Notes under the pieces: generated by a model | The model's database searches: none | What the model saw: the letters and a program-made list of their open reading frames with translations, nothing else | Told to the model about the DNA's origin: nothing | Shown here: positions 23,441-58,371 of the stretch, piece by piece | Layout of the letters: every line of letters starts with the position of its first letter | Numbering within the stretch: the first letter of the stretch is position 1 | Assembly: GCA_965243135.1 (NCBI GenBank) | Contig: OZ251539.1 | Span: forward strand, 4,630,236 to 4,694,235 | DNA: 64,000 nucleotides | Reading direction: 5' to 3' | DNA from: Alphaproteobacteria bacterium | GTDB lineage: Bacteria > Pseudomonadota > Alphaproteobacteria > MPNO01 > UBA830 | Translations under genes and position numbers: made by a program

Positions 23441-24377
23441 CGCCGCGTCCTGCCTGCAACTTCGTGTAAAGCTGGAATATCGCCGCGGCCGTTTCCTCGA
23501 TCGAGCGCCTCGTCACGTCGATCACCGGCCACGCGTTCCTCAGGAACACCCTTCTAGCATCCCTGATCTCGTTCTTCACGTTGCCCATGTCGACATACGC
23601 CGTCTTGGGATCCTGGCCAAGCATCAGAAGACGATTGCGCCGAATCTGGACGAGCCGATCCACCGAGGCCGTCAACCCGACTACCAGCGCGCCCCCGGAA
23701 TCGAACAGCTCGTCCGGCAGGGGCGAACCGGGAACGAACGGTATGTTCGCCGTCTTCAGCCCGTAATGGTTGGCGAGATAGATGGAGGTCGGAGTTTTCG
23801 ACGTTCGGGATACCCCGACGAGAACGAGATCGGCCTCCGAAAGGCTGTCGGCCGCCTGACCGTCATCATGCGCCATGACGTAATGAAGCGCATCGATCCG
23901 ATCGAAATAGTCGGAGTTCAGAATGTACTGGCCGCCAGGACGGTTGACGGTTTTCCGGTTGAAGTGTCCGGCGAAGACGTCGATGACCGGATCGAGCACC
24001 GACACGCAAGGAATGTTCAAACGCTGGCATTCCTCGCGAAGCTCGCGGCTCGTCAGAGCGCTGATCAACGTGAATATGACGATTCCCGGATTTTCGCGAA
24101 TGCCCTCGATCACGGGCTCGAGCTGGCCGGTGGAAAGAATCATCGGCCAAAGGTGCTCAATCGCGGCAACGCCTTCGAACTGGGCCAAGCAGGCGCGCAC
24201 GACGCCCTGAGTCGTTTCGCCCGTGGCGTCCGAAACCAAATGTATATGGAAAACCTCGCTCAAACCGATTCGCCCACAATTCCGCCGATTCGCTCCCGCA
24301 GCGGGGATAACCCCGTTCTCCCGCCGAAGCAGCCGAAATCCCTCCCGTTCATTCAATGGATGCTCAGAGGTTATCAT
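23424..24377 (-). CDS. pyruvate phosphate dikinase / PEP synthase regulatory protein (DUF299 kinase-pyrophosphorylase)
   Basis: HIHLVSDATGET N-terminal motif and a GVSRTSKTPTS P-loop. Confidence 0.8.
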   Translation of the reverse strand: MITSEHPLNEREGFRLLRRENGVIPAAGANRRNCGRIGLSEVFHIHLVSDATGETTQGVVRACLAQFEGVAAIEHLWPMILSTGQLEPVIEGIRENPGIVIFTLISALTSRELREECQRLNIPCVSVLDPVIDVFAGHFNRKTVNRPGGQYILNSDYFDRIDALHYVMAHDDGQAADSLSEADLVLVGVSRTSKTPTSIYLANHYGLKTANIPFVPGSPLPDELFDSGGALVVGLTASVDRLVQIRRNRLLMLGQDPKTAYVDMGNVKNEIRDARRVFLRNAWPVIDVTRRSIEETAAAIFQLYTKLQAGRGDESGG

Positions 24378-24628
24378 GGATTTCCAAGCAAGGCCACATG
24401 TAGCTGAAAAAAGGCGCCATGCACGGAATTCACAATTCCGCGGCTCCCTCTAAATTCAAACCCATAAACGATTTTTCCGCGTTATGCACATGAACTTCCG
24501 CCCGTATCGCTCCTGAATTGTTTCGTGGATTATCTGTGAACGGAATTTTATCCTCATATTTCATGCATCAATCTAGATCGAACGAATCTATAAATTATAA
24601 TTATTTAAATCAAATATATTGTTATTGA
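24378..24628. promoter_or_regulatory. strongly AT-rich divergent intergenic region, probably the hemE promoter
   Basis: About 250 nt including tctataaattataattatttaaatcaaatatattgttattgaatgg, which contrasts sharply with the GC-rich flanks. It lies between divergent genes. Confidence 0.5.
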
Positions 24629-25675
24629 ATGGAATTCTGCCATACTAGGCTCATGGACGTTCGCAAACCAACGATTGCCGCCTTGCTGGGACGGCGGGTG
24701 GATCCGCCTCCTGTCTGGTTGATGAGGCAGGCCGGCCGATACCTTCCGGAATATCTTCAGGTACGAAAACAAGTTCCGGAGTTCCTCGATCTTTGTTTCG
24801 ATCCTTTCAAAGCCGCGCAAGTGACGCTACAACCGATCGAAAGATTTAATTTCGATGCAGCCATTCTTTTTTCCGATATTTTGGTCGTTCCGTACGTTCT
24901 TGGACAAAAGGTGGAGTTTGCGGAAGGCCCCTGTCTCGATCCCGTGCGCGATGCCGCTGCGCTTGCGGCTCTGTCCGTCGATCTGACTCAAGACAGGTTT
25001 TCCCCGATCTACGAGACGATCGACAGGGTCAAGGAAAAATTATCGAGCGGCGTCGCTCTGGTCGGTTTCGCGGGCGCGCCATGGACGGTGGCTACCTATA
25101 TGGTCGAAGGAGGCGGCAGCCGGGATTACGTGAACGTGAAGCGGTGGGCTCTGGGCGACCCCTCCGGATTTCAGTCCTTGGTCGATCTTCTGGTCGACGT
25201 TACGGCGGATTACCTCAAGGGGCAGATCGCCGCCGGCGCGGATGCCGTCCAGCTATTCGACACTTGGGCGGGAGTCTTGCCGAAGTCGGCGTTCGACAGA
25301 TTCTGCGCCGCTCCCGTCCTCGATATTGCGCGGCAGGTGAAATCCGGGCATCCGGATACGCCGGTGGTGGTCTTTCTTCGCGGATCGGCCGTGAATTTGC
25401 CGGAGTTGGCGTCGGCTCCCGAGATTGACGCGATCGGAATCGACCATGCGGTCGATCCCGTTTGGGCGGCGAAGGAAATCCAGCCGCGAGCGGCGGTCCA
25501 GGGAAACCTCGATCCGGTTTTGCTGCTAGCCGGAGGTCCCGAACTGGAGCGCGGGGCGCGAGAGATCGTTGATTCGTTGTCCGGAGGAGCTCATGTCTTC
25601 AATCTGGGACATGGCATTCTGCCCCAGACGCCGGTGGAGCACGTCAAATTCTTGGTCGACCTGATCCGATCATGA
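24629..25675 (+). CDS. hemE: uroporphyrinogen decarboxylase
   Basis: PPVWLMRQAGRYLPEY signature. An alternative start is the ATG at 24653. Confidence 0.9.
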   Translation: MEFCHTRLMDVRKPTIAALLGRRVDPPPVWLMRQAGRYLPEYLQVRKQVPEFLDLCFDPFKAAQVTLQPIERFNFDAAILFSDILVVPYVLGQKVEFAEGPCLDPVRDAAALAALSVDLTQDRFSPIYETIDRVKEKLSSGVALVGFAGAPWTVATYMVEGGGSRDYVNVKRWALGDPSGFQSLVDLLVDVTADYLKGQIAAGADAVQLFDTWAGVLPKSAFDRFCAAPVLDIARQVKSGHPDTPVVVFLRGSAVNLPELASAPEIDAIGIDHAVDPVWAAKEIQPRAAVQGNLDPVLLLAGGPELERGAREIVDSLSGGAHVFNLGHGILPQTPVEHVKFLVDLIRS

Positions 25676-41510: not shown

Positions 41511-41966
41511 ATGACGGGCCGTCTGGAACGCGGCCTGCGCGCGGTCTGCGCGGCGGCGCTTCTCGCGCTGTTCGCGCTCGTCGTCGCGCAGGTCGCGCTC
41601 CGATACGGTTTCGGCTACACGCCGTTCTTCACGGAAGAGGTGGCCCGCTACATGCTCGTCTGGTCGGTGCTGGCGGGCGCCGCGGCGTCGGTCGACGCCC
41701 ATATCCGGGTTCCGTTCGTGCCGGATCTTCTGAGGCCCGCCGCGCGGCGGGCCTGGATGCTGGCGCTGGACGTCGCGACGCTCCTGCTGCTGGCCGTGTT
41801 GACCTTCGCCGCGGTTCGGTCGTTCGAGTTCGCCGCCGGCCAGACCAGCGACGGGCTCCAGATCCCGCTTCAGTACCCTTACGCGGTTCTCCCGCTCGCT
41901 TTCGGGGCGGCGCTGCTTCTTCTCGCCGTCCGCCTCAAACGCGGATTCAGGAAGGAGCGGGAGTGA
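41511..41966 (+). CDS. dctQ: TRAP transporter small permease
   Basis: 151-aa four-TM DctQ-like protein. Confidence 0.8.
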   Translation: MTGRLERGLRAVCAAALLALFALVVAQVALRYGFGYTPFFTEEVARYMLVWSVLAGAAASVDAHIRVPFVPDLLRPAARRAWMLALDVATLLLLAVLTFAAVRSFEFAAGQTSDGLQIPLQYPYAVLPLAFGAALLLLAVRLKRGFRKERE

Positions 41967-43249
41967 GCCTCGCTCTCTTCGTCGCGTCTTTTCTGTTTCT
42001 CCTGTTCGCGGGCCTGCCGGTCGCGTGGACCATGGTCGCCTCCTCCGTCGTATGGCTGGCCGCGAGCGGGCAGATGGCGTTTCTCGCGGTTCTGCCGGAG
42101 CGCATCTTCCAGGGAATCGACGTATTCGTCCTGATGGCGATCCCGCTGTTCGTGCTGGCGGGCGAACTCGTCAACGAGGGCCGCATCACGGACAGGCTGG
42201 TCGCGTTCGCGAACGTGCTGTTCGGCTGGATGCCGGGCGGACTGGCGCAAGTGAACATCGGCACGTCCATCCTGTTTTCCGGCATCACGGGCGTCGCGCT
42301 GGGCGATATCGCGGCGCTCGGCAAGGTGTTCATTCCGTCGATGGCGAAAAACGGCTATTCGCCGGCCTACGCCGCGGCCGTGACGGCTTCCTCGTCGATA
42401 ATCGGACCCATGGTCCCGCCGTCGCTGATCGTCGTGATCTACGGCTCGATAACGGGCGTGTCCATCGGCGCGCTGTTCGCCGCCTGCGTGGTTCCGGGCC
42501 TCCTGATCGGGTTCTGTCAGATGGCGCTCGTCTGGTTTCAGGCGCGAAGGCGAGGCTTCGTCGGCGTGGAGGTCGACCGTTCCCTGCCCGCGGTCGCGAC
42601 GTCGGCCCGGCGGGCGCTGCCTCCCCTGCTGGTCCCGGTCATCGTATTGGCCGGCATTCTGGGCGGCGTCATGACTCCGACCGAAGCGGGCGGGCTCGCC
42701 GCCTTTTACGCCTTGGCGATCGCGGTCCTTCTTTATCGCTCGATAGGCTTGCGGCAGTTCCTGTCGGCGCTCGAGCGGTCCGCCGTCTTCTCGTCCCAGC
42801 TGCTGATCATCGTCGGATGCGGCGCCGTTTTCACCTGGGTGATGGGCATGGAAAACGTGCCGTCGCTGGTCGAGCGGACGGTGAAGGAATTCGACGTCCA
42901 TCCCGTTCTGCTGCTGTTGACGCTGAATCTCGTCATGCTCGTCCTCGGAATGTTCGTCGATCCGACTGCCGCCATCATCCTGTTCGTGCCGATTCTGGGG
43001 GCGATGGCGCAAGCCGCGGGCGTCGACCCGGTTCATTTCGGCGCCATCGCCATCCTGAATCTCAATATCGGCCTCCTGACGCCGCCGCTGGGCGTCTGCC
43101 TTTTCGCGGCTGAGCGCATCGCCGGCTGCGGCCTCGCGGCGCTGCTGCGCGAGACCTGGCCTTTTTTGACCGTCAGCCTGGTCGCGTTGGTCCTCGTGAC
43201 CTGCCTGCCGCAGCTCAGCCTGTGGCTGCCGCGCGCGATCGGGCTGTGA
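41963..43249 (+). CDS. dctM: TRAP transporter large permease
   Basis: 428-aa polytopic DctM-like protein, with a GTGA overlap with dctQ. Confidence 0.85.
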   Translation: MSLALFVASFLFLLFAGLPVAWTMVASSVVWLAASGQMAFLAVLPERIFQGIDVFVLMAIPLFVLAGELVNEGRITDRLVAFANVLFGWMPGGLAQVNIGTSILFSGITGVALGDIAALGKVFIPSMAKNGYSPAYAAAVTASSSIIGPMVPPSLIVVIYGSITGVSIGALFAACVVPGLLIGFCQMALVWFQARRRGFVGVEVDRSLPAVATSARRALPPLLVPVIVLAGILGGVMTPTEAGGLAAFYALAIAVLLYRSIGLRQFLSALERSAVFSSQLLIIVGCGAVFTWVMGMENVPSLVERTVKEFDVHPVLLLLTLNLVMLVLGMFVDPTAAIILFVPILGAMAQAAGVDPVHFGAIAILNLNIGLLTPPLGVCLFAAERIAGCGLAALLRETWPFLTVSLVALVLVTCLPQLSLWLPRAIGL

Positions 43250-43257
43250 GCGGCGGA

Positions 43258-43854
43258 ATGCGGAAGCGCGCGGATCTCGCCGGCGAAGCGAAGGGCCTGC
43301 GCATCGGCGAACGCCTGTCGCAGATCAGGAAAGCCAAGGGGCTTACCCTCGCCCGGCTGAGCGAGACGACGGCGATTTCGGAAGCCACGCTGTCGCGCGC
43401 CGAAAACGGCATCTCGCCCCTCAACGCGCACAACTTGTACATCCTCGCCAGGGTGCTGGACGTCGACGTGGTGTCTTTCTTCCGGTCGGACGCCGAGACT
43501 TTCGCGAGAGGGAAGCGCGCGATAACGAAAGCCGGCGAAGGGGAGCGCGGGTCGACGCAGCGCTACGACCTCGAACTGCTGTGCGCCGAATTGTCGGCGA
43601 AGAGGATGGTGCCCAGCCGGAACCGGATCACCGCCCGCTCCCTGGAGGAAGCCGGCGGCCTGCGCGCTCACGAGGGGGAGGAATTCCTGTACGTTCTGTC
43701 GGGCGAGGTGGCGATCTACACGGATCTGTACGCGCCCGCGATCATGGAAACGGGGGACAGCATGTATTTCGACGGAAACACGGCGCACGCTTACGTAGCG
43801 ACGGGCGACGGCCCGGCCGAGATACTCGTGGTCACGACGGTCGATCATGGATGA
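43258..43854 (+). CDS. XRE-family HTH plus cupin domain transcriptional regulator
   Basis: HTH_3 (LSQIRKAKGLTLARLSETTAISEATLSRAENG) and a C-terminal cupin. Confidence 0.75.
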   Translation: MRKRADLAGEAKGLRIGERLSQIRKAKGLTLARLSETTAISEATLSRAENGISPLNAHNLYILARVLDVDVVSFFRSDAETFARGKRAITKAGEGERGSTQRYDLELLCAELSAKRMVPSRNRITARSLEEAGGLRAHEGEEFLYVLSGEVAIYTDLYAPAIMETGDSMYFDGNTAHAYVATGDGPAEILVVTTVDHG

Positions 43855-44305
43855 CGGGTACGCCCACGTCTGCTCGATACGGATCGCCCGTCCCGCGGAG
43901 ACCGTTCTGGCGTTTCTGAGCGCGCCCGAGCTGTTGTCGAGCTGGGCGGCGGGCATGGGGCGCGCAAAGATCCACGACGATGGGCTTGTCGAGGGCGCGT
44001 TTCCGGATACGGGCGAACCGATCTGGGCGCGGATCGACGCGGATCCGAAGCGCAATGCGATTCATTACCATCTCGGCCCGGAACCCTCGTCTCTGGCGCC
44101 GCGAATCGAGATACGAATCGTTCCCGGACCGGTCCTGGAGTCCGATGCCGACTCCTGCGTCGTCTCGATGATCGCGTGGCGGCAGAACGGCATGGACGAC
44201 GTTCGTTGGCGAAGCCTCAAATCCGGCCACGAAGCCGAAATCCTCGAAATCAAGAGGCTGATCGAAAGCCAAAAATACCGGGTACAAAAAGGGTGCTTCT
44301 GCTAG
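43847..44305 (+). CDS. hypothetical protein
   Basis: 152-aa ORF with backbone-like GC content and no recognisable motif. It is the last native gene before island 1. Confidence 0.45.
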   Translation: MDDGYAHVCSIRIARPAETVLAFLSAPELLSSWAAGMGRAKIHDDGLVEGAFPDTGEPIWARIDADPKRNAIHYHLGPEPSSLAPRIEIRIVPGPVLESDADSCVVSMIAWRQNGMDDVRWRSLKSGHEAEILEIKRLIESQKYRVQKGCFC

Positions 44306-44507
44306 TGGAGCTGCTAGAAATAAAAGTACCCCATCCATGGGAACAAACGATCTATTGCTCACCTGACCATGCTTCTTGACAGTACCATCGAGACCGTGCT
44401 ATGAACATTCAAGTAATCCATTTTGAGGAAATTCTGACTGAATTTTCGCACGACAAATTTGGATGTTATGGTATCCTGAATGGATTAGGGATGAGGATCA
44501 AGAAATC

Positions 44508-45953
44508 ATGAAGGATCAAACATATCAATTGTTGCATAATTTTTCCAACTTTGTCGCAGTTGGCGATTGTTGGGATGCTGCGCGAGAATTAATGGCTACG
44601 CATCAGATAATTGAGGTTTCTGAGACCGAAGAATTTATTTTAGGAATCAAGAAATTATCAGAAATTGCGAGAAAAGGTGATGACATTGATCGTCTCATTG
44701 CAATCGATCTAATCGTTCGCATTTCTAAATTTGTAAAAAAATTGCGCCCGAAATCGGAGGAAGCGCTTCGTCAAATTCTAACGGATAATATACCGCCTTC
44801 TTCATTGTTATCAAACACAAAAAAAATCCCAGAGGGAGCGAAGCCAGCAGAACTACGCGAGAATTTGGCAATAGCGCTGAGCTATGCATCAGGAAATTGG
44901 GTCGTTCCATATGTTGTGCGTTCCTTGTTGGAGGAAGATCGTTCACAAAGATGTCGTATGGAATTAGCTCGCCAACTAGCCACACGAGAAAAATCTATTG
45001 ACAAATGGTTGCTTTCAGTAATTAATTTTCTTATGAAAGGCGTAAACGAAAAGGAAAGAAATGTCGAAATCGCCGTGACAAGACTGCGCGATACTACAAC
45101 AGCGCTTCTTGGTGCCGCGAGAGAAAACCGGAATAATCTCGGGATATCGGGAAACTCCGGCGTTAATTTTTCTAAGATGTGTTCCCTTTTCACGCCAAAT
45201 TCGTCGTTTGCTAAACGCCCAAAATCTCTAGAGTCTTGTTCAATTGAAGTAGCGCGCTTTCTGGATGAAATATTTGCTAATAAACTCATGCTTATCGTGG
45301 AACCAGAAGCGTACTCTGTGTTGGATATAATTCAAAAATGGTGGCAACCACTTTCTTATCCACAACGATTGCGAAATGCATTAGATCCAATAAAGGATAA
45401 AATACTTACTGGTATCACATTAAGAGCCCGCTGGGGGCAGAAATCTGATAAGCTTCGATCTCGTCTCGGACAGGCATATGGCGATCAACGGTTAGCATTT
45501 AATCGTCTTGAACAAATTGCAACGGAGGAAACAGGTCTTCCTTCAGATATTGATGATTGGTTGAGGGGGCGTCGTCGAAAGACGAGCGGCGTAGAAAATG
45601 CGACTCTCGCTCTTCAATCAGTGGAAGAAGATAGTTTAATTGATGCTTTTGCACCGCTGCTTCTTGAAGCGGAAGTCGTACTGAAATCTAGACTCGATCC
45701 TTCGTTGTCTAATGAAAATCGAACCAGTCTTCGACTCGCAGAAAATGTAAGATCTTTGGCGATAAGACATGGATTAGAAGTTGTTGGAGAACGAGATGAA
45801 ATAGTGGAATATCTGCCAGTATGTCATCAGACTTCTTCGGGTGAAATACCACCGGATCCGTCTGTTAAAATCGTTCGTCCCATGGTGGTGCGCAAGCGAT
45901 ACGATGGAAGTGAAGACGTTGTTGTTAAGGCAATTGTAACCGCGGTATCATGA
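44508..45953 (+). CDS. hypothetical all-helical protein (about 481 aa), island 1 gene A
   Basis: AT-rich ORF with a GAGGA RBS before the ATG at 44508 (an alternative ATG is at 44463). It has HEAT/ARM-like helical repeats and no catalytic motif I can recognise. Confidence 0.55.
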   Translation: MKDQTYQLLHNFSNFVAVGDCWDAARELMATHQIIEVSETEEFILGIKKLSEIARKGDDIDRLIAIDLIVRISKFVKKLRPKSEEALRQILTDNIPPSSLLSNTKKIPEGAKPAELRENLAIALSYASGNWVVPYVVRSLLEEDRSQRCRMELARQLATREKSIDKWLLSVINFLMKGVNEKERNVEIAVTRLRDTTTALLGAARENRNNLGISGNSGVNFSKMCSLFTPNSSFAKRPKSLESCSIEVARFLDEIFANKLMLIVEPEAYSVLDIIQKWWQPLSYPQRLRNALDPIKDKILTGITLRARWGQKSDKLRSRLGQAYGDQRLAFNRLEQIATEETGLPSDIDDWLRGRRRKTSGVENATLALQSVEEDSLIDAFAPLLLEAEVVLKSRLDPSLSNENRTSLRLAENVRSLAIRHGLEVVGERDEIVEYLPVCHQTSSGEIPPDPSVKIVRPMVVRKRYDGSEDVVVKAIVTAVS

Positions 45954-45984
45954 TGCCAACGCGCTAACCGAAAAAGGGGGTGTC

Positions 45985-46773
45985 CATGGAAAATATGATC
46001 GGGTTGGATAGGCCAGCGCTTCTTTCAAGTGTACTAGATGAACGGTCAAGAAACCCCTTAGGTTGCGGCGTGATCAGGTAGTGTCTTTTTTCGAGTCGTT
46101 GCCGTATGTGGCGATGGAGACCTGCGTCAGCGCTCATCACTGGGGTCGGCGTCTGAGAGATACGAGGTAGAACTTTTCCGGCCCAGATCCTTACCTCAAA
46201 TAGAACAAGAACGACGCACTGACAGCGAGGCGGTACAACGCCCGCAATTGCCGTCCCGAGGAGCAAGGACGTACACGGCGTGCTGTCGTTTCACAGGACG
46301 CCGAAAATGTTGGCTAAGTAGGGTGCCTAGAACTCCGACGAGTGCGCGGAGTTCGGCGTGGTCGCATTCCAGAACTGTGCCGATGTGAACCAGCCGGTTC
46401 ATCCGGGACGACAGCCTGCTGCCTGAAGAAGCTCGCTTGGCGACGTCGGTCAACCTTTTCGATCAGATCTGGAAGACCGCCGAGATGCAGGAGGCTCCGC
46501 GGAGTTGCACAGCGAGTTAGGCGACAATTCGAAAAAACTCCAGACGTCAGCGTGGCCACCGCGCTGACGGCATCGCTCGGGCTAGTGCCGCGGCAGAACG
46601 GTCCCGGTTCACCGTATCTGAAGGTGCTCATGGAAACAGTGAACTAGGTCGCCGTGGCGATTGCCAACCGAAACGTACGAATCGCTCGGGTGATGGTCCA
46701 CAGCGTCCAATCTTATAGACCAAGGATTGCCGAGTCTCCAACCATACAGGCGCAGGCCGAAGTTCACCCGTAA
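45985..46773 (+). pseudogene. degraded IS110-family transposase remnant
   Basis: IS110 N-terminal and C-terminal signatures are scattered over three frames with multiple stops (MENMIGLD, FFESLPYVAMETCVSAHHWGRRL, TASLGLVPRQNGPG, VAIANRNVRIARVM). It is too short for an intact element. Confidence 0.6.
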
Positions 46774-46855
46774 GTTGCATCCGAAAAATGCTTGCAACCC
46801 GTGGACGTCCATGCAAGTATGTGATGCATCCATTGAATCAGCAGAGGCGATAACC

Positions 46856-48436
46856 ATGCCGGATATTAATCGCGCGGCTTTTGATATTCTGGGACCAAAC
46901 GAGGACGAATTAAGAATTTGTTTGGATTTTGGTACTGCCATGTCGAAAGCATGGGCATCAAGATATTCTGATGACAGTACCATACCCCTTGTATTGGGAA
47001 GGGCGGCCGGCGAGGGTAATGAGTTGGCGGTCCCTTCGTCTATATTTATTTCTCAATCTGGAAAGATTTTCTTTGGAAGGCAAGCGGAAATTCAACATAG
47101 AAAGGAAATAGGAAATCGGCGCCGAAGATTTGATAACTTGAAATCAGTTCTTTGCGAATCAAAAGTTGATCGAGAACTTGACGAGATAGGAGTATCGCGA
47201 GAAATTGATCCAACGGGTTCTCTTACAATAGGTGGTTTGTTAACTCTATATATTGCTTGGTTAACTGATCTTTCTCTTGTAGAATTGGAACGGCAGATAC
47301 ATGCAGCAAATGAACCCAACTCTAGCGGACAAAATCCGAACAATCTTCGCTATGTTCGTAGGAGATTTGCTATCCCATGCTTTGAAAATTCTTATGACGA
47401 ATCTGTTGGTGGGGATCGACGGGCTCGATGGGCAAGAAAAATAATGAGGAAAGCATTGCTTCGGGCTCAAATTATCGCCGATACATTGAATGGGCATTGG
47501 GACGATCTAACAGTATACGATGCTTTGAGATTATTTGAAACCGTCCGGGGCATGGAAATTTCTAGGTGTGATCGATTGCTAGCAAGGGACGCCTCAGTTC
47601 GGGAGCCAGTTGCTGCAGGAGCATCGCGATTTGAAGAAATGATTACCGAAGGTAAGGCTAGGAGGATGCTGCTAGTAATCGATGCGGGCGCAGGGACCAC
47701 GGATTTTGCTATTTTTCAGGTTTTTTCTGATCAAGAAACGCGGTACGCATTAATTTCATCCGGGGTTTCTATGTGTCTAATTGCAGGAAATAGAGTCGAT
47801 CAGGTTTTAATGGAAGTCATTCTTGATGAATGTGGCGTTGATTTAGCTCAAAATAACAAGGAGGATAGAGAATCTTTCAAATGGGAACTGGAATCAAATC
47901 TCCGAAACATAAAGCAAATCCTGTTTCAGGAAAAGCGAGCAAGAATAGATTTTTTGTCAGATGTCACGGGGGAATTGCATATTGACACTCTTCTCGAAGA
48001 TCATAGATATATGAAATTAGGAGAGGAATTGTGCACAATCCGCGATAGGCTAATTGATGACCTTTTTCGAAAAAATCCTAAAGAATTGGATGATCTAAAA
48101 AAGCATATGCAAATGCTAAGTAAACCGTTTCCTATACATGTATTGCTGACGGGAGGTAGTGGTGAGCAGCCAATAATAAAAGATTTAGCCAAAGGTCATA
48201 TTGTAGTTGACGGATTAAATATTGAATTTAAGGAGGTTCGGGCTCTGCCAAATTGGATCAATGATCTACAGCGTGATCAGGCGGAATTAGTTGCTAGGGC
48301 ATATCCGCAATGTGCGGTCTCTATAGGTGGTTCGGCTCGCGAAGTTCCCCAAGAACGAAACGATTTAGTTTCCATGGTGAATCCCGCAGCGCCAGGAGAG
48401 AGACGACTTGAAGGCAATTACATGAAGGGCGTATAA
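46856..48436 (+). CDS. Hsp70-like (ASKHA superfamily) ATPase, island 1 gene B
   Basis: Phosphate-1 (ICLDFGTAMSKAW), phosphate-2 (LLVIDAGAGTTDFAIF) and adenosine (VLLTGGSGEQPIIKDL) motifs arranged as in the Hsp70 nucleotide-binding domain. It has no peptide-binding-domain-like C-terminus. Confidence 0.65.
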   Translation: MPDINRAAFDILGPNEDELRICLDFGTAMSKAWASRYSDDSTIPLVLGRAAGEGNELAVPSSIFISQSGKIFFGRQAEIQHRKEIGNRRRRFDNLKSVLCESKVDRELDEIGVSREIDPTGSLTIGGLLTLYIAWLTDLSLVELERQIHAANEPNSSGQNPNNLRYVRRRFAIPCFENSYDESVGGDRRARWARKIMRKALLRAQIIADTLNGHWDDLTVYDALRLFETVRGMEISRCDRLLARDASVREPVAAGASRFEEMITEGKARRMLLVIDAGAGTTDFAIFQVFSDQETRYALISSGVSMCLIAGNRVDQVLMEVILDECGVDLAQNNKEDRESFKWELESNLRNIKQILFQEKRARIDFLSDVTGELHIDTLLEDHRYMKLGEELCTIRDRLIDDLFRKNPKELDDLKKHMQMLSKPFPIHVLLTGGSGEQPIIKDLAKGHIVVDGLNIEFKEVRALPNWINDLQRDQAELVARAYPQCAVSIGGSAREVPQERNDLVSMVNPAAPGERRLEGNYMKGV

Positions 48437-48540
48437 AGTATTAGTCAGGGAACAAGGCTGTTGGCCGGACTGCTTCACTCGGGATGGGCGGGAGAGCTTG
48501 TTGTTGCAATGACTTCCAATCGCGAGACCTTGGAACAAAG

Positions 48541-49797
48541 TCAGTCCGCAGCGTCGGCGAGACCGACGAGCGTTTCAGCGAGTACCCGTGCCCCGTCCGC
48601 GAGATCTTCCGGCGCGGCATTTTCCGCTTCGTTGTGACTGATGCCTTTCTCGCAGGGGACGAATATCATCCCGGTCGGGCACACGAAATGCAGTTGGCGC
48701 GCATCGTGCCCCGCTCCGGAGAACATTCGCATGGCCGGGAGGCCGAGACGGTCGGCGGCGGCCTCGACGGCGTCCACCACCAGCGGTTCGAACTCGATGG
48801 AATCCGCCTCGGCGATGCGCCATGCCTCGACGTCGCACGCAACCGACCGGTCGCGGCAGATCCCGTCGACTTCCGAGGCGAGCCGTTCGAGCAGCGCCGA
48901 ATCGGGGTGGCGAATGTCGATCGAAAACACGGCGCCGCTCGCCACCACGGAGGGCACGTTGGGCTCGGGCAGCATCATGCCTACGGTGAACCGCACGTCT
49001 TCGTCGGCATGAAGCTGGTCGTGCAGGGCGGACACCATGCGGGCGGCCTCCCAGAGAGCGTCCTTGCGCGCCGCGCGCGGGGTCGTTCCTGCGTGCGCTT
49101 CCTCTCCCGTCACCCTGACGCGCATTCGCCTTACGCCTTGAATGCCGGTCACGATGCCGATGGTCTTTCCCAGCCTTTCGAGTTCCGGCCCCTGCTCGAT
49201 ATGGGCTTCGACGAACGCGGCGACAGGGCGGCCGAGCGGAAGTTCCCCGGCATCCGGCGTTGCGGCTAGCGCCGCCGGCAGCGCGTCGCGGACGGGCGTG
49301 CCGTCCCGATCCCTTACCGTGAGGATCTCCTCCATGCCGCGCAACCCGGCGAAGGCTTCGGAGCCCATCATGCCCGGCGCGAAACGCGACCCTTCCTCGT
49401 TCATCCAGGCGGCGACCTCGATGGACCGCCGGGTCGCGACGCCCGCGTCGTTCAGGGCTTCGACCGCTTCGATCCCGGCGAGCACGCCGTATGCGCCGTC
49501 GAACTTGCCGCCGGTCGGCTGGCTGTCGATATGCGACCCGGTCATGACGGGCGGCAAGCCGGGGTCGCTGCCGTCCCGCCGCAGGAACAGGTTGCCTGCC
49601 GCGTCGACGAAAACGCCGAGGCCGAGTTCCGCGGCCCAGGAGGCCAGTCGGCCTCGCGCCTCGATTTCTTCCGTGGAAAGCGCCTGCCGGTTGACGCCGC
49701 CCTTTCCGGTCGCGCCGAACTGCGCGAGCTCCATATGACGCCGCCACAGACGGGCCTCGTCGACGAAGCCGGAGACGATGCGCGGGCTTTCCGGCAC
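48541..49797 (-). CDS. hyuC: N-carbamoyl-L-amino acid amidohydrolase / allantoate amidohydrolase (peptidase M20 family)
   Basis: 418-aa M20/AmaB-like protein. Functionally it matches the hyuAB genes upstream of the island. Confidence 0.85.
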   Translation of the reverse strand: MPESPRIVSGFVDEARLWRRHMELAQFGATGKGGVNRQALSTEEIEARGRLASWAAELGLGVFVDAAGNLFLRRDGSDPGLPPVMTGSHIDSQPTGGKFDGAYGVLAGIEAVEALNDAGVATRRSIEVAAWMNEEGSRFAPGMMGSEAFAGLRGMEEILTVRDRDGTPVRDALPAALAATPDAGELPLGRPVAAFVEAHIEQGPELERLGKTIGIVTGIQGVRRMRVRVTGEEAHAGTTPRAARKDALWEAARMVSALHDQLHADEDVRFTVGMMLPEPNVPSVVASGAVFSIDIRHPDSALLERLASEVDGICRDRSVACDVEAWRIAEADSIEFEPLVVDAVEAAADRLGLPAMRMFSGAGHDARQLHFVCPTGMIFVPCEKGISHNEAENAAPEDLADGARVLAETLVGLADAAD

Positions 49798-56318: not shown

Positions 56319-57148
56319 CTCCAAGCAATGCACCATCCGCCATCGGAATTTCGATTTCAGAGAGTCCCGACATGCAGGCGCTCGGGTTAAGCGATGGCCA
56401 CTTGCGCGACGCCATGGCCGAGGTCGCGCTGCACTTGCTTGCCTCGGGAAGGAGCCTAGCCTATGGCGGAGATTTACGGCGCCATGGATTCACCGAGCTT
56501 TTGTTCGAGCTGGTCGGACGCTATCGAAACCATCCGCGACATCGCGGCACGATATCCGTAACCGATTATCTGGCTTGGCCCGTTCATATTAAAATGACCT
56601 CGAACGAGCTCGCTGCGTTCGCCGCCGAACACGATGCGGCTGTTTCTCTCGTTTTCCTTGCGCGAGACGGCGTGCGCCTCGAACGGGAACAGCGAATGAG
56701 GCTTTCTGAACGCGAACCGGATGACGACGAGTGGACGGAAGGACTAACGTCCATGCGGACCGCCATGCGCCGAGAAATTCAGGCTCGAGTAGTGTTGGGC
56801 GGCAGGGTCGAGGGCTACAAGGGAACCATGCCGGGGATCGCCGAAGAGGCCTATCTTTCTCTCGAAGCCAGTCAGCCGATCTTCCTGCTTGGCGGTTTCG
56901 GCGGGTGCGCCCGCGACATTGCCGAGACAATCGGGCTTGTCGACCGTTGGGCCGGCTCTAGGGGCGATTGGGACGGTCGCGGTCGCTTTCGTTCGTATTC
57001 CCCGAACGAACTCCGCAACGGCTTGTCCCGGGAGGAGAACGTCGTTCTCGCACGGACGCCGCACATCCAGGAGGCGGTCGCCTTGGTATTGCGAGGCCTC
57101 CGCCGGATCCTCAGCTGGAGAGATAGCGATGCACAAGGTATTCATTAG
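56315..57148 (+). CDS. standalone SLOG (LOG/ThsA-STALD-like Rossmann) domain protein
   Basis: LAYGGDLRRHGFTELL and PIFLLGGFGGCARDIAE match the SLOG/LOG GGxG...PGGxGTxxE pattern. It has ATGA coupling to the TIR gene and no SIR2, Macro or TM module. Confidence 0.6.
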   Translation: MTPSNAPSAIGISISESPDMQALGLSDGHLRDAMAEVALHLLASGRSLAYGGDLRRHGFTELLFELVGRYRNHPRHRGTISVTDYLAWPVHIKMTSNELAAFAAEHDAAVSLVFLARDGVRLEREQRMRLSEREPDDDEWTEGLTSMRTAMRREIQARVVLGGRVEGYKGTMPGIAEEAYLSLEASQPIFLLGGFGGCARDIAETIGLVDRWAGSRGDWDGRGRFRSYSPNELRNGLSREENVVLARTPHIQEAVALVLRGLRRILSWRDSDAQGIH

Positions 57149-57728
57149 TTATCACCATGAGAGGGATCAGGGGTACAAGGATTCCTTGATCGAGTTTGGC
57201 GTGAAGAATTCCGTATTCGTGGACAGGTCTGTCGATCCTGGCGACATTTCGGAGGAATTGAGCGACGAGCGGATCCGTCACATAATCAGAGACAAGTATC
57301 TTAGGGATTCCACGGTTACCATTGTGTTGGTTGGAAAAGAGACGAAACACCGGAAACACGTCGACTGGGAGATTCACACCAGCATGTACGACGGGACCGC
57401 GAGCAGAAGATCGGGAATAGTGGTCATCAACCTGCCGGGAACCTCCGATTACTTTGGCGCTCCTTATGGAGAGGCCGAGAAAAAACTCTTGTATCCAGAC
57501 GTTACGAACTGGATGAGTATAGATTCACGAGCGGAGTACGAACGCAGATATCCCTACATGCCTGATCGCATCGTGGACAATCTCGTGAAATCCGACGTAA
57601 AAATTTCGGTCGTTCCTTGGGGCAGGCTAAATGCGGAAAGACTCGAATTTCTGATAGAAGCGGCCTTTAGCAATCGTTTTGAGTGCGGATACGATCTGAG
57701 CAGACGAATGAGGCGGGCAAACTCGTAA
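57129..57728 (+). CDS. ThsB-like TIR protein (DUF1863-type)
   Basis: MHKVFISYHHERD...VTIVLVGKETKHRKHVDWEI closely parallels the Thoeris ThsB/DUF1863 TIR layout. Its GC content is markedly lower than the backbone. Confidence 0.75.
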   Translation: MHKVFISYHHERDQGYKDSLIEFGVKNSVFVDRSVDPGDISEELSDERIRHIIRDKYLRDSTVTIVLVGKETKHRKHVDWEIHTSMYDGTASRRSGIVVINLPGTSDYFGAPYGEAEKKLLYPDVTNWMSIDSRAEYERRYPYMPDRIVDNLVKSDVKISVVPWGRLNAERLEFLIEAAFSNRFECGYDLSRRMRRANS

Positions 57729-57897
57729 TACAGGGTTGCGTCGAAGCCGGAGGCCTGCGCCGACGCTCATCAATGGGGCGGGCCTTGCACGGCCGCAAAG
57801 CGAAGCTCGCGGACGAAACCGTTCGTCGACAAGAACGACCTTGCCGGTGCCGGTGCGATCTGCGAGGCGGCGGCCGTCGCGAGGCCGGTCGAAGAGG

Positions 57898-58371
57898 CTA
57901 CTCCGCGTCCGTGAACGACTGCAGGAAATTCTGCATCCCGACCTGATCGATCAGCGCGATCTGCGTTTCGAGCCAGTCGATGTGCTCCTCTTCGCTTTCC
58001 ATGATTTCGACGAACAGCTCGCGAGATACGTAATCGTTGACGCGCTCGCAATCGGCGACCGCGGCGATCAGATCCTTGCGCGACTCCATTTCGAGCAGCA
58101 GGTCGCATTCCAGCGCTTCCTTGACGTTCTCGCCGATCCTTAGACGGCCCAGATCCTGAAGGTTGGGAAGGCCCTCCAGATAGAGGATCCGGTTTATCAG
58201 CCGGTCCGCATGCTTCATCTCGTCGACCGATTCCCGGTATTCCATCTCGTCGAGCTTCCCGAAGCCCCAGTTCTTGAACATCCGGGCATGCAGGAAATAC
58301 TGGTTGATCGCCGTCAGCTCGTTCTTGAGCACCAGGTTCAGGTGCCGGATGACGTCCTTGTCGCCTTTCAT
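57898..58371 (-). CDS. bfr: bacterioferritin
   Basis: 157-aa Bfr with ferroxidase-centre residues ([23 protein letters not shown]). Confidence 0.9.

What the first reader, a model, noticed from the sequence alone, without database searches (positions are those of the whole stretch)
44306..48440. Island 1: AT-rich two-gene cassette (helical protein plus Hsp70-like ATPase) with an IS110 remnant, inserted in the hydantoin utilisation locus
A sharp compositional break (about 40 percent GC by eye versus the high-GC flanks) separates hyuA-hyuB-dctPQM-regulator from hyuC. Inside are a 481-aa all-helical protein and a 527-aa protein with Hsp70 nucleotide-binding-domain motifs but no substrate-binding-domain-like tail, on the same strand, separated by a decayed IS110 transposase. 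An orphan Hsp70-like ATPase paired with a large partner in a foreign island looks like a conflict/defence or addiction module rather than a housekeeping chaperone. I cannot assign it to a described system from sequence alone.
Basis: partly seen in the sequence, partly recalled or inferred. Interest (0 to 1): 0.8.

Follow-up and report, generated by a model that had tools for sequence, protein, structure and literature searches.

The report
Hsp70-like candidate phage-defence gene pair
A foreign, AT-rich island in a hydantoin-utilisation locus carries a conserved two-gene pair that a phage-defence database already lists as the untested candidate PDC-M61; the models show an Hsp70-like ATPase with no substrate-binding domain and a helical-repeat partner whose tail resembles GrpE, the factor that resets Hsp70.

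Summary
A 4.1-kb stretch of about 0.42 GC sits in flanks of 0.62-0.71 GC, between hyuA-hyuB-dctQM-regulator and an M20 peptidase gene. It holds gene A (481 aa), a decayed IS110 transposase remnant, and gene B (526 aa), all on the + strand.

The pair can be assigned to a catalogued system. A and B match the two components of PADLOC candidate PDC-M61 (E 1.5e-24 and 5e-80). PDC-M61 is one of 145 untested "phage defence candidates" found embedded in RM/BREX loci.

In 21 of 21 other loci with a full-length or recognisable B gene, A lies directly upstream on the same strand. Neighbours often include type I or IIG RM, BREX, Druantia-like and ABC-ATPase genes.

The IS insertion is secondary. The closest relative sits at the same chromosomal site without it.

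Defence activity is untested. This is a new member of a catalogued but uncharacterised kind, of moderate interest.

The parts
44306..44507 (+). AT-rich leader at the left edge of the island. The GC drop begins here. The promoter was not identified.
   Evidence: Composition profile and sequence. The promoter scan found no more sites than shuffled sequence gives. Only part of this stretch aligns with the same position in L001.
44508..45572 (+). Gene A, residues 1-355: ARM/HEAT-like alpha-solenoid. It is basic (pI 9.1) and carries the conserved motifs EDRSQRC, TLRARWGQKS and WLRGRRRK. I take it as the putative ligand-binding or sensor part.
45573..45953 (+). Gene A, residues 356-481: a disordered linker, a long helix (363-396), a second helix (402-420) and a small beta domain (423-479). 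This is the GrpE-like domain, the putative docking and nucleotide-exchange module for B.
45954..46855 (+). A-B spacer enlarged to 902 bp by a decayed IS110-family insertion. The transposase-coding remnants lie at about 46051-46722 (+). GC is 0.56-0.60.
   Evidence: Three-frame reading. tblastn hits to annotated IS110 transposases, best E 2e-10. Self-mapping. The A-B ORF gap is -157 to +90 nt in the 20 other intact loci; L016, a decayed fused ORF, is excluded. The gene-to-gene spacer is 140 bp in L001.
46856..48436 (+). Gene B: Hsp70-type nucleotide-binding-domain ATPase with helical insertions, no substrate-binding domain and an extended C-terminal tail. Motifs: DFGTAMSK (residue 24), FDNLK (92), AIPCFE (172), REPVAAGA (249), DAGAGTTDF (276), LTGGSG (431).
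43847..44305 (+). Left flank gene, 152 aa, with a weak SRPBCC/polyketide-cyclase-like match. It belongs to the host locus, not the island.
   Evidence: Pfam E 0.0056. This gene is also the left flank of the cassette in L001, at 84-88% nucleotide identity.
48541..49797 (-). Right flank gene: M20 peptidase, hyuC-like amidohydrolase. It belongs to the host locus.
   Evidence: Pfam Peptidase_M20, E 6.7e-28. Its 3' end is also the right flank of the cassette in L001.

Best explanation
The island carries a divergent copy of the two-gene cassette that PADLOC catalogues as PDC-M61, an untested phage-defence candidate.

B is an Hsp70-family ATPase reduced to its nucleotide-binding domain, with the catalytic residues intact. 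A is an ARM/HEAT-like solenoid fused to a C-terminal GrpE-like domain.

The proposed mechanism is inferred, not shown. The GrpE-like tail of A docks on the nucleotide-binding cleft of B, as GrpE docks on DnaK, and so sets B's ADP/ATP state. The basic solenoid of A binds a ligand, either a phage or host protein or a nucleic acid, and couples that binding to the ATPase cycle. Neither protein has a nuclease, protease, NADase or pore domain. The output is therefore most likely ATP-driven binding, remodelling or sequestration of a target, possibly in support of the RM/BREX systems in which relatives are embedded.

In this genome an IS110 element later landed in the short A-B spacer and decayed. Both genes remain intact.
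For: Shown:
- Both proteins match the two PDC-M61 profiles. PDC-M61 is cassette CAS_00187 (FAM_02378>>FAM_01640, listed with the number 46, apparently a count) in the guilt-by-embedding screen.
- A lies immediately upstream of B on the same strand in 21 of 21 other loci with a recognisable B gene (one of them, L016, decayed), from Alpha- and Gammaproteobacteria.
- Neighbours include hsdR-hsdM-hsdS directly upstream in L006, L007 and L017, BrxL, a type IIG RM enzyme, DruE, UvrD/GajB-like helicases and NsnB/AriA-like ABC ATPases.
- B has the Hsp70-type NBD fold with no second domain. The phosphate-1, phosphate-2, adenosine and connect motifs are invariant in 95 homologues.
- A combines a solenoid with a GrpE-like C-terminus.
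- Purifying selection against the closest relative: dN/dS 0.15 for A and 0.25 for B.
- The A family is rare and keeps one architecture. It has 509 representative clusters among 1.84 billion; the full-length ones are about 470-500 aa, and none shows a long extension that could hold an effector domain.
- L001 carries the same cassette between the same two flank genes, without the IS.

Inferred: the A-B contact, the nucleotide-exchange role, the ligand-sensing role and the defence function.
Against: - No member of PDC-M61 has been tested against phage. The only literature mention found is a statistical association with prophage number.
- The GrpE resemblance rests on one structure-comparison method plus a weak profile signal. 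Pfam GrpE found nothing, a PDB profile search found nothing, smaller profile comparisons gave P 0.035 and 0.15, and Foldseek did not list GrpE among its top 50.
- This copy is in a catabolic operon, not a defence island. It has 902 bp of IS debris between A and B, which may uncouple their expression. No promoter was identified.
- No homologue was found on plasmids or phages.
- No effector domain is recognisable, so the output step is a guess.
Confidence: 0.5

Rival explanations
1. The pair is a dedicated chaperone-like or regulatory module with no role in defence. An NBD-only Hsp70 and its own exchange factor or adaptor would act on a particular host client, and the pair would be carried passively on mobile DNA.
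For: - No effector domain is present.
- A related B-like protein is vertically inherited next to a two-component system in Hyphomonadaceae, without A.
- This copy sits in a catabolic locus.
- Both genes are under purifying selection.
Against: - Distribution is patchy and the family is rare.
- The composition is foreign.
- Relatives are repeatedly embedded in type I RM or sit next to BREX, Druantia-like and RM genes.
- A diverges much faster than B at long range: 30-96 bits against 199-251 bits in loci L006-L020, excluding the decayed L016. This pattern is typical of conflict-system specificity subunits.
Confidence: 0.2
2. In this genome the cassette is a non-functional relic. The IS110 insertion broke the operon, and the two ORFs persist without working together.
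For: - 902 bp of decayed IS lies between A and B, whereas the ORF gap is -157 to +90 nt in the 20 other intact loci.
- No promoter-like site above chance lies upstream of B.
- Decay of this cassette does occur elsewhere. L016 is a fused A-B remnant.
Against: - Both ORFs are full length compared with their closest relative and have no stops or frameshifts, although the IS between them has decayed heavily.
- dN/dS is 0.15 and 0.25, but this measures the whole divergence from L001, not only the time since the insertion.
- The IS lies on the same strand, so read-through transcription is possible.
- B keeps a Shine-Dalgarno-like AGAGG 8 nt before its ATG (read directly).
Confidence: 0.2
3. B is an actin-like filament-forming ATPase of the ParM/MreB type, and A is its adaptor. 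The pair would be a segregation or cytoskeletal module of a mobile element.
Against: - The only sequence-level signals are to Hsp70: Pfam HSP70, PDB BiP and DnaK, and NCBIfam PRK11678 'molecular chaperone'.
- The motifs match the Hsp70 versions (AIPCFE / REPVAAGA / DAGAGTTDF).
- No homologue was found on plasmids or phages.
- A looks like GrpE plus a solenoid, not like a ParR-type DNA-binding adaptor.
Confidence: 0.05
4. The pair is a toxin-antitoxin or addiction module.
For: It is a two-gene operon with overlapping or closely abutting genes on foreign DNA.
Against: - Both proteins are large (481 and 526 aa).
- Neither matches a toxin or antitoxin family.
- No homologue was found on plasmids.
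- The IS-separated arrangement is tolerated in this genome.
Confidence: 0.05

Closest known systems
PADLOC PDC-M61 (phage defence candidate; Payne et al., bioRxiv 10.1101/2024.01.29.577857)
   Same: Both proteins match its two profile sets, in the same order and on the same strand. Relatives found here are embedded in type I RM loci, which is how the candidate was defined.
   Different: - B and its closest relative lack the ~45-residue N-terminal helical motif and linker that most homologues carry. The PADLOC B profile is matched only from position 118.
- An IS110 remnant splits the pair.
- This copy lies in a catabolic operon.
- The family has no tested function, so membership says little about mechanism.
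DnaK-GrpE chaperone cycle (Hsp70 and its nucleotide exchange factor)
   Same: B has the Hsp70 NBD fold and motifs. The C-terminus of A has the GrpE order of long helix, helix and small beta domain, and it superposes on three GrpE structures. The two genes are adjacent.
   Different: - B has no substrate-binding domain or lid.
- No J-protein partner was seen.
- A carries a 355-residue solenoid that GrpE lacks.
- Neither protein passes the Pfam thresholds for HSP70 or GrpE.
- The composition is foreign and the distribution patchy.
CoCoNuT CnuD / CnuCD (PMC11090510)
   Same: An Hsp70-like ATPase is combined with HEAT-like helical repeats in a predicted defence context. The authors propose ATP/ADP binding and target recognition rather than protein folding.
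   Different: - CnuD is described as NBD plus SBD, is linked to McrBC-like GTPase systems, and has degenerate Walker-like motifs.
- Here the ATPase motifs are invariant and there is no SBD.
- The repeats are on a separate protein that also has a GrpE-like domain.
- No McrBC-like genes flank the pair in this window.
- Direct homology to CnuD was not tested.
NBD-only Hsp70 relatives (NCBIfam PRK11678 'molecular chaperone')
   Same: Weak sequence match, E 1.1e-4 over residues 250-334. From my own knowledge, the E. coli YegD type likewise lacks a canonical substrate-binding domain.
   Different: The score of 21 bits is far below the family cut-off of 331 bits. B has extra helical insertions and an obligate A partner.
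DnaK-like domains fused to EACC1-protease defence modules (bioRxiv 10.1101/2025.11.14.688446)
   Same: An Hsp70-type domain lacking lid helices appears in a conflict-system context and is proposed to act as a sensor.
   Different: Those domains are about 50% identical to canonical DnaK and are fused to a protease-effector module. B is highly divergent and has no effector.

Membership tests
PADLOC PDC-M61 | A protein matching a PDC-M61A profile | tested here: met
   PDLC04727 E 1.5e-24 over residues 58-477. PDLC04728 E 6.1e-21 over residues 4-479.
PADLOC PDC-M61 | A protein matching the PDC-M61B profile | tested here: met
   PDLC04731 E 5e-80. Profile positions 118-573 of 588 are matched, so the N-terminal part is absent.
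PADLOC PDC-M61 | The two genes adjacent, same strand, A before B | tested here: met
   Same strand and same order. They are separated by 902 bp of IS debris rather than abutting as in the 20 other intact loci.
PADLOC PDC-M61 | Anti-phage activity | not testable with these tools
   The source paper lists the PDC systems as untested candidates.
Canonical Hsp70 (DnaK/HscA/HscC) | Actin-fold nucleotide-binding domain with Hsp70 motifs | tested here: met
Canonical Hsp70 (DnaK/HscA/HscC) | C-terminal beta-sandwich substrate-binding domain and helical lid | tested here: not met
Canonical Hsp70 (DnaK/HscA/HscC) | Passes the Pfam HSP70 (PF00012) gathering score | tested here: not met
   11.5 bits against a cut-off of 20.6.
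Canonical Hsp70 (DnaK/HscA/HscC) | J-domain co-chaperone partner | tested here: inconclusive
   No DnaJ family appears among the 25 most frequent Pfam families in 67 neighbour proteins, but the full list was not shown. The window flanks are catabolic genes.
GrpE nucleotide exchange factor | Long helix + helix + C-terminal beta domain fold | tested here: met
GrpE nucleotide exchange factor | Sequence membership (Pfam PF01025) | tested here: not met
   No GrpE hit in any of 27 C-termini at E <= 10. A PDB profile search found none.
GrpE nucleotide exchange factor | Remote homology by profile-profile comparison | tested here: inconclusive
   hhalign gave P 0.035, then 0.15, then 0.0019 with the deepest profile. 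The register was the expected one each time. A reversed control gave P 0.55.
GrpE nucleotide exchange factor | Binds the Hsp70 NBD and accelerates ADP release | not testable with these tools
   This needs a complex prediction or biochemistry.
IS110 family insertion sequence | Similarity to the IS110-type transposase | tested here: met
   tblastn hits to annotated IS110 family transposases, best E 2e-10, about 31-33% identity over 82% of the stitched query.
IS110 family insertion sequence | Intact transposase ORF (a functional element) | tested here: not met
   The coding remnants are spread over three frames with stops and internal deletions. Pfam found no hit. There is no second copy in the window.
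CoCoNuT type III (CnuD) | Association with McrB-like GTPase / McrC-like genes | tested here: not met
   The window flanks are hyu, TRAP-transporter, regulator and peptidase genes.
CoCoNuT type III (CnuD) | Sequence homology of B to CnuD | not tested
ParM/actin-like segregation system | Closest fold and sequence relatives are ParM/Alp proteins, carried on a plasmid or phage | tested here: not met
   Hsp70 NBDs rank above MreB and ParM. tblastn found no plasmid or phage homologue.

The most novel reading that the evidence does not exclude
PDC-M61 would be a new kind of immune module that copies the DnaK-GrpE nucleotide-exchange pair.

A solenoid sensor would be fused to a GrpE-like exchange domain. 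On binding a phage component, it would switch an effector-less, NBD-only Hsp70. An alternative version is that the pair acts as a decoy or guard of the host DnaK/DnaJ/GrpE machinery that phages exploit.

In either case protection would come from ATP-driven capture or remodelling of a target, not from a nuclease, NADase or pore.
Probability: 0.2. Interest if true: 0.8.

Novelty: new member of a known kind. Interest (0 to 1): 0.5.

Why it matters
Hsp70-type ATPases are starting to appear in predicted bacterial conflict systems, for example CoCoNuT CnuD and the DnaK-like fusions to EACC1-protease modules. No stand-alone Hsp70-like defence system has a known mechanism.

The finding here is that the partner protein carries a GrpE-like domain. 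That turns an anonymous two-gene candidate into a specific biochemical hypothesis: A controls nucleotide exchange on B. It also names the residues to mutate.

The pair of loci, one with and one without the IS at the same chromosomal site, offers a natural comparison for testing whether operon integrity matters.

The system itself is already catalogued. Its defence role is unproven, and this particular copy may be impaired.

Tried and rejected
- **Pfam and NCBIfam on A:** nothing found.
- **Pfam on the IS ORFs and on a stitched IS pseudo-protein:** nothing found. blastn of the IS region against plasmids also found nothing. Only tblastn recovered IS110.
- **Idea that the IS truncated the 5' end of B,** because the PADLOC profile is matched only from position 118: rejected. 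The closest relative, P0002 in the IS-free locus L001, also lacks that N-terminal segment, and the A-B spacer there is only 140 bp.
- **A conserved third gene:** none found across the 21 loci. The apparent 143-aa gene after B in L001 is the antisense strand of the hyuC-like flank.
- **Island borders:** no flanking direct repeat longer than 8 bp, which is chance level. No tRNA at the borders. No Rfam match. Promoter and terminator scans were at shuffle level.
- **Sequence proof of GrpE homology:** Pfam, the PDB profile search and a comparison with single-sequence GrpE all failed. Foldseek of model A returned only weak helical-repeat hits.
- **Literature searches for a tested Hsp70/GrpE-like defence system:** none found.


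Full report
**1. Observation**

The compositional break is sharp. GC falls from 0.62-0.71 to 0.37-0.45 at about 44300 and returns at about 48450. There is an internal bump of 0.56-0.60 at 46000-46800. The window average is 0.638.

Two long + strand ORFs fill the low-GC parts.
- Gene A is 44508-45953, 481 aa, with the ORF open from 44463.
- Gene B is 46856-48436, 526 aa, with the ORF open from a TTG at 46727.

Identical proteins of exactly these lengths are on record from one 6.1-Mb NCBI contig (P0121 and P0001).

The GC bump is a decayed IS110-family transposase gene on the + strand.
- Recognisable pieces lie in all three frames, with stops between them.
- The stitched 223-aa translation hits annotated IS110 family transposases by tblastn (best E 2e-10, about 31-33% identity over 82% of the query).
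- It maps to 46051-46722.
- Pfam did not see it, and there is no second copy in the window.

DctP itself was not checked.

**2. What the pair is**

Pfam and NCBIfam say almost nothing. A has no hit. B has HSP70 at E 0.082, below threshold, and PRK11678 'molecular chaperone' at E 1e-4.

PADLOC-DB does recognise both. A matches four PDC-M61A profiles (best E 1.5e-24) and B matches PDC-M61B (E 5e-80).

PDC systems are 145 untested 'phage defence candidates'. They were derived from gene cassettes embedded in BREX, DISARM and type I RM loci (Payne et al., bioRxiv 10.1101/2024.01.29.577857). PDC-M61 is cassette CAS_00187, FAM_02378>>FAM_01640, listed with the number 46, which I read as a count. The only other mention found is a negative statistical association with prophage number in Pseudomonas aeruginosa isolates.

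**3. Conserved pairing and context**

I searched 185,579 species genomes with a B alignment and obtained 80 loci. I then scored six-frame ORFs with profiles of A and B.
- In all 21 loci with a recognisable M61B-type gene (L001-L020 and L039; L016 is decayed), A lies directly upstream on the same strand. The organisms include Roseomonas, Sphingomonas, Pseudomonas, Thioalkalivibrio, Thiorhodococcus and Billgrantia.
- Excluding L016, a decayed single fused A-B ORF, the ORF gap in these loci is -157 to +90 nt.
- No third gene is conserved.

Neighbours are rich in defence genes:
- hsdR-hsdM-hsdS immediately upstream in L006, L007 and L017
- BrxL in L008
- a type IIG RM enzyme in L039
- DruE-like giants and a UvrD/GajB-like helicase in L012 and L013
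- an NsnB/AriA-like ABC ATPase downstream in L006
- an SNF2 helicase in L011

The A family is rare, with 509 clusters at 50% identity among 1.84 billion representatives. Its architecture is uniform: the full-length representatives are about 470-500 aa, and none shows a long extension that could hold an effector domain. No B homologue is present in the plasmid or phage collections.

At long range A diverges far more than B. In loci L006-L020, excluding L016, A scores 30-96 bits and B scores 199-251 bits.

**4. Structures**

*Protein B.* The model has pLDDT 90.6 and pTM 0.90 and forms one compact domain.
- These rank ahead of MreB (22.8) and the ParM, FtsA and PilM proteins.
- There is no beta-sandwich substrate-binding domain or lid. 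Residues 493-526 form an extended tail.
- The motifs correspond to the Hsp70 phosphate-1, catalytic lysine, connect, phosphate-2 and adenosine motifs: DFGTAMSK, FDNLK, AIPCFE, REPVAAGA, DAGAGTTDF and LTGGSG (positions). Their key residues are invariant across 95 homologues. The correspondence is my own reading against established Hsp70 signatures.

Most homologues are 560-625 aa because they carry a conserved ~45-residue N-terminal helical motif plus a variable linker. The window protein and its closest relative P0002 lack this.

*Protein A.* The model has pLDDT 89.
- Residues 1-355 form an alpha-solenoid.
- A disordered linker follows at 358-373.
- Then come a 34-residue helix, a 19-residue helix and a small beta domain at 423-479.

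Sequence support for the GrpE link is weak but consistent.
- Pfam and PDB profile searches find no GrpE.
- hhalign always picks the structurally expected register, with A 'RHGLEVVGE..VEYLPVCHQT' aligned to GrpE 'K.GVE.I....FDP..HQA'.
- The P value was 0.035 with small profiles and 0.15 with intermediate ones.
- With 178 A C-termini against 121 GrpE sequences it was 0.0019. A reversed-profile control gave 0.55.
- Foldseek did not list GrpE.

I rate the GrpE-like assignment at about two in three.

**5. Mechanism**

Shown:
- a conserved operon of an Hsp70-type NBD with intact catalytic motifs
- a solenoid protein with a GrpE-like tail
- no recognisable effector domain
- frequent embedding in restriction/BREX loci
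- purifying selection, with dN/dS 0.15 for A and 0.25 for B against L001

Inferred:
- The GrpE-like domain of A docks on B and governs its nucleotide state.
- The basic solenoid (pI 9.1, with conserved Arg-rich motifs) binds the trigger or target.
- The output is ATP-dependent capture or remodelling, alone or in support of neighbouring systems.

Phage dependence on DnaK/DnaJ/GrpE is established knowledge. The recent finding that DnaJ mediates phage sensing by bNACHT25 (PMC12169576) makes a guard or decoy version conceivable, but nothing here tests it.

**6. History of this copy**

The closest relative is L001, a 4.6-kb metagenome contig. Its A is 78% identical and its B 69% identical to the window proteins.
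- L001 has the same left flank gene (L001 1-366 matches window 43826-44274 at 84-88%).
- It has the same right flank (through window 48756).
- It has the same low GC (0.44 against flanks of about 0.63).
- It has no IS, and its A-B spacer is 140 bp.

The cassette therefore either predates the split of the two organisms or targets this site. The IS110 insertion into the spacer is a later, lineage-specific event. The IS has since decayed, but A and B have not.

Whether B is still expressed is unknown. Promoter scans are at chance level. A Shine-Dalgarno-like AGAGG lies 8 nt before its ATG. No integrase, tRNA, flanking repeat or Rfam element marks the island.

**7. Comparison and verdict**

The cassette passes every testable membership criterion for PDC-M61. 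It fails the criteria for canonical Hsp70 (no SBD, below the Pfam threshold). For GrpE it is fold-level only.

It resembles CoCoNuT CnuD in combining an Hsp70-like ATPase with HEAT-like repeats (PMC11090510). It differs in lacking an SBD, in lacking McrBC partners and in keeping its catalytic motifs.

It is a new, slightly atypical member of a catalogued but uncharacterised candidate system. The new element in this analysis is the GrpE-like domain in A, which gives a testable mechanism. Interest is moderate, because the defence function is unproven for the whole family and this copy may be impaired.

Noticed in passing
L021-L081 except L039 (for example L021:7938-9332): Hyphomonadaceae, Terricaulis and Caulobacterales genomes carry a ~450-aa B-like Hsp70/actin-fold protein. 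It lacks the helical insert (B profile positions ~211-334) and has no A partner. Its synteny is conserved: a histidine kinase family (~446 aa), found in 40 of the 60 loci, lies mostly upstream on the same strand at a median distance of 68 bp, and an OmpR-type regulator lies further upstream. Some genomes have two copies. It looks like a vertically inherited relative of the defence-candidate ATPase.
   Followed up: partly
L016:7371-8582: A single ORF joins A (profile 7-190) to B (profile 218-398 and 574-598). This is a decayed, internally deleted PDC-M61 cassette in an uncultured alphaproteobacterium.
   Followed up: no
L001:4245-4629 compared with window 49546-49636 and 43126-43644: In the IS-free relative contig, the right flank skips ~790 bp of the M20 peptidase gene. 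The contig end then matches the regulator region that lies upstream of the island in the window. This could be a rearrangement, a tandem or circular form, or an assembly artefact.
   Followed up: no
L006:17-12160, L007:66-12190, L017:6-12345: Three gammaproteobacterial loci share one arrangement: hsdR-hsdM-hsdS-A-B followed by an ABC ATPase of ~610-660 aa (NsnB/PDC-M55A/AriA-like) and an unannotated ~295-aa protein. It may be a composite defence operon.
   Followed up: partly
window 41746-41842: ARAGORN calls a 97-nt tRNA-Arg(cct) inside the DctQ gene (41511-41966). It is probably a false positive.
   Followed up: no
window 24001-25000 and 57001-58000: These are the other 1-kb bins of reduced GC (0.51 and 0.55, against the window mean of 0.64). 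They may be further foreign segments.
   Followed up: no
B homologues, alignment A1 columns 1-50: Most PDC-M61B proteins start with a conserved ~45-residue helical motif (M..E.A..VRSL.GRL...G....LP.GRLS..EV.AL) followed by a variable low-complexity linker. The window protein and P0002 lack it. Its role is unknown.
   Followed up: no
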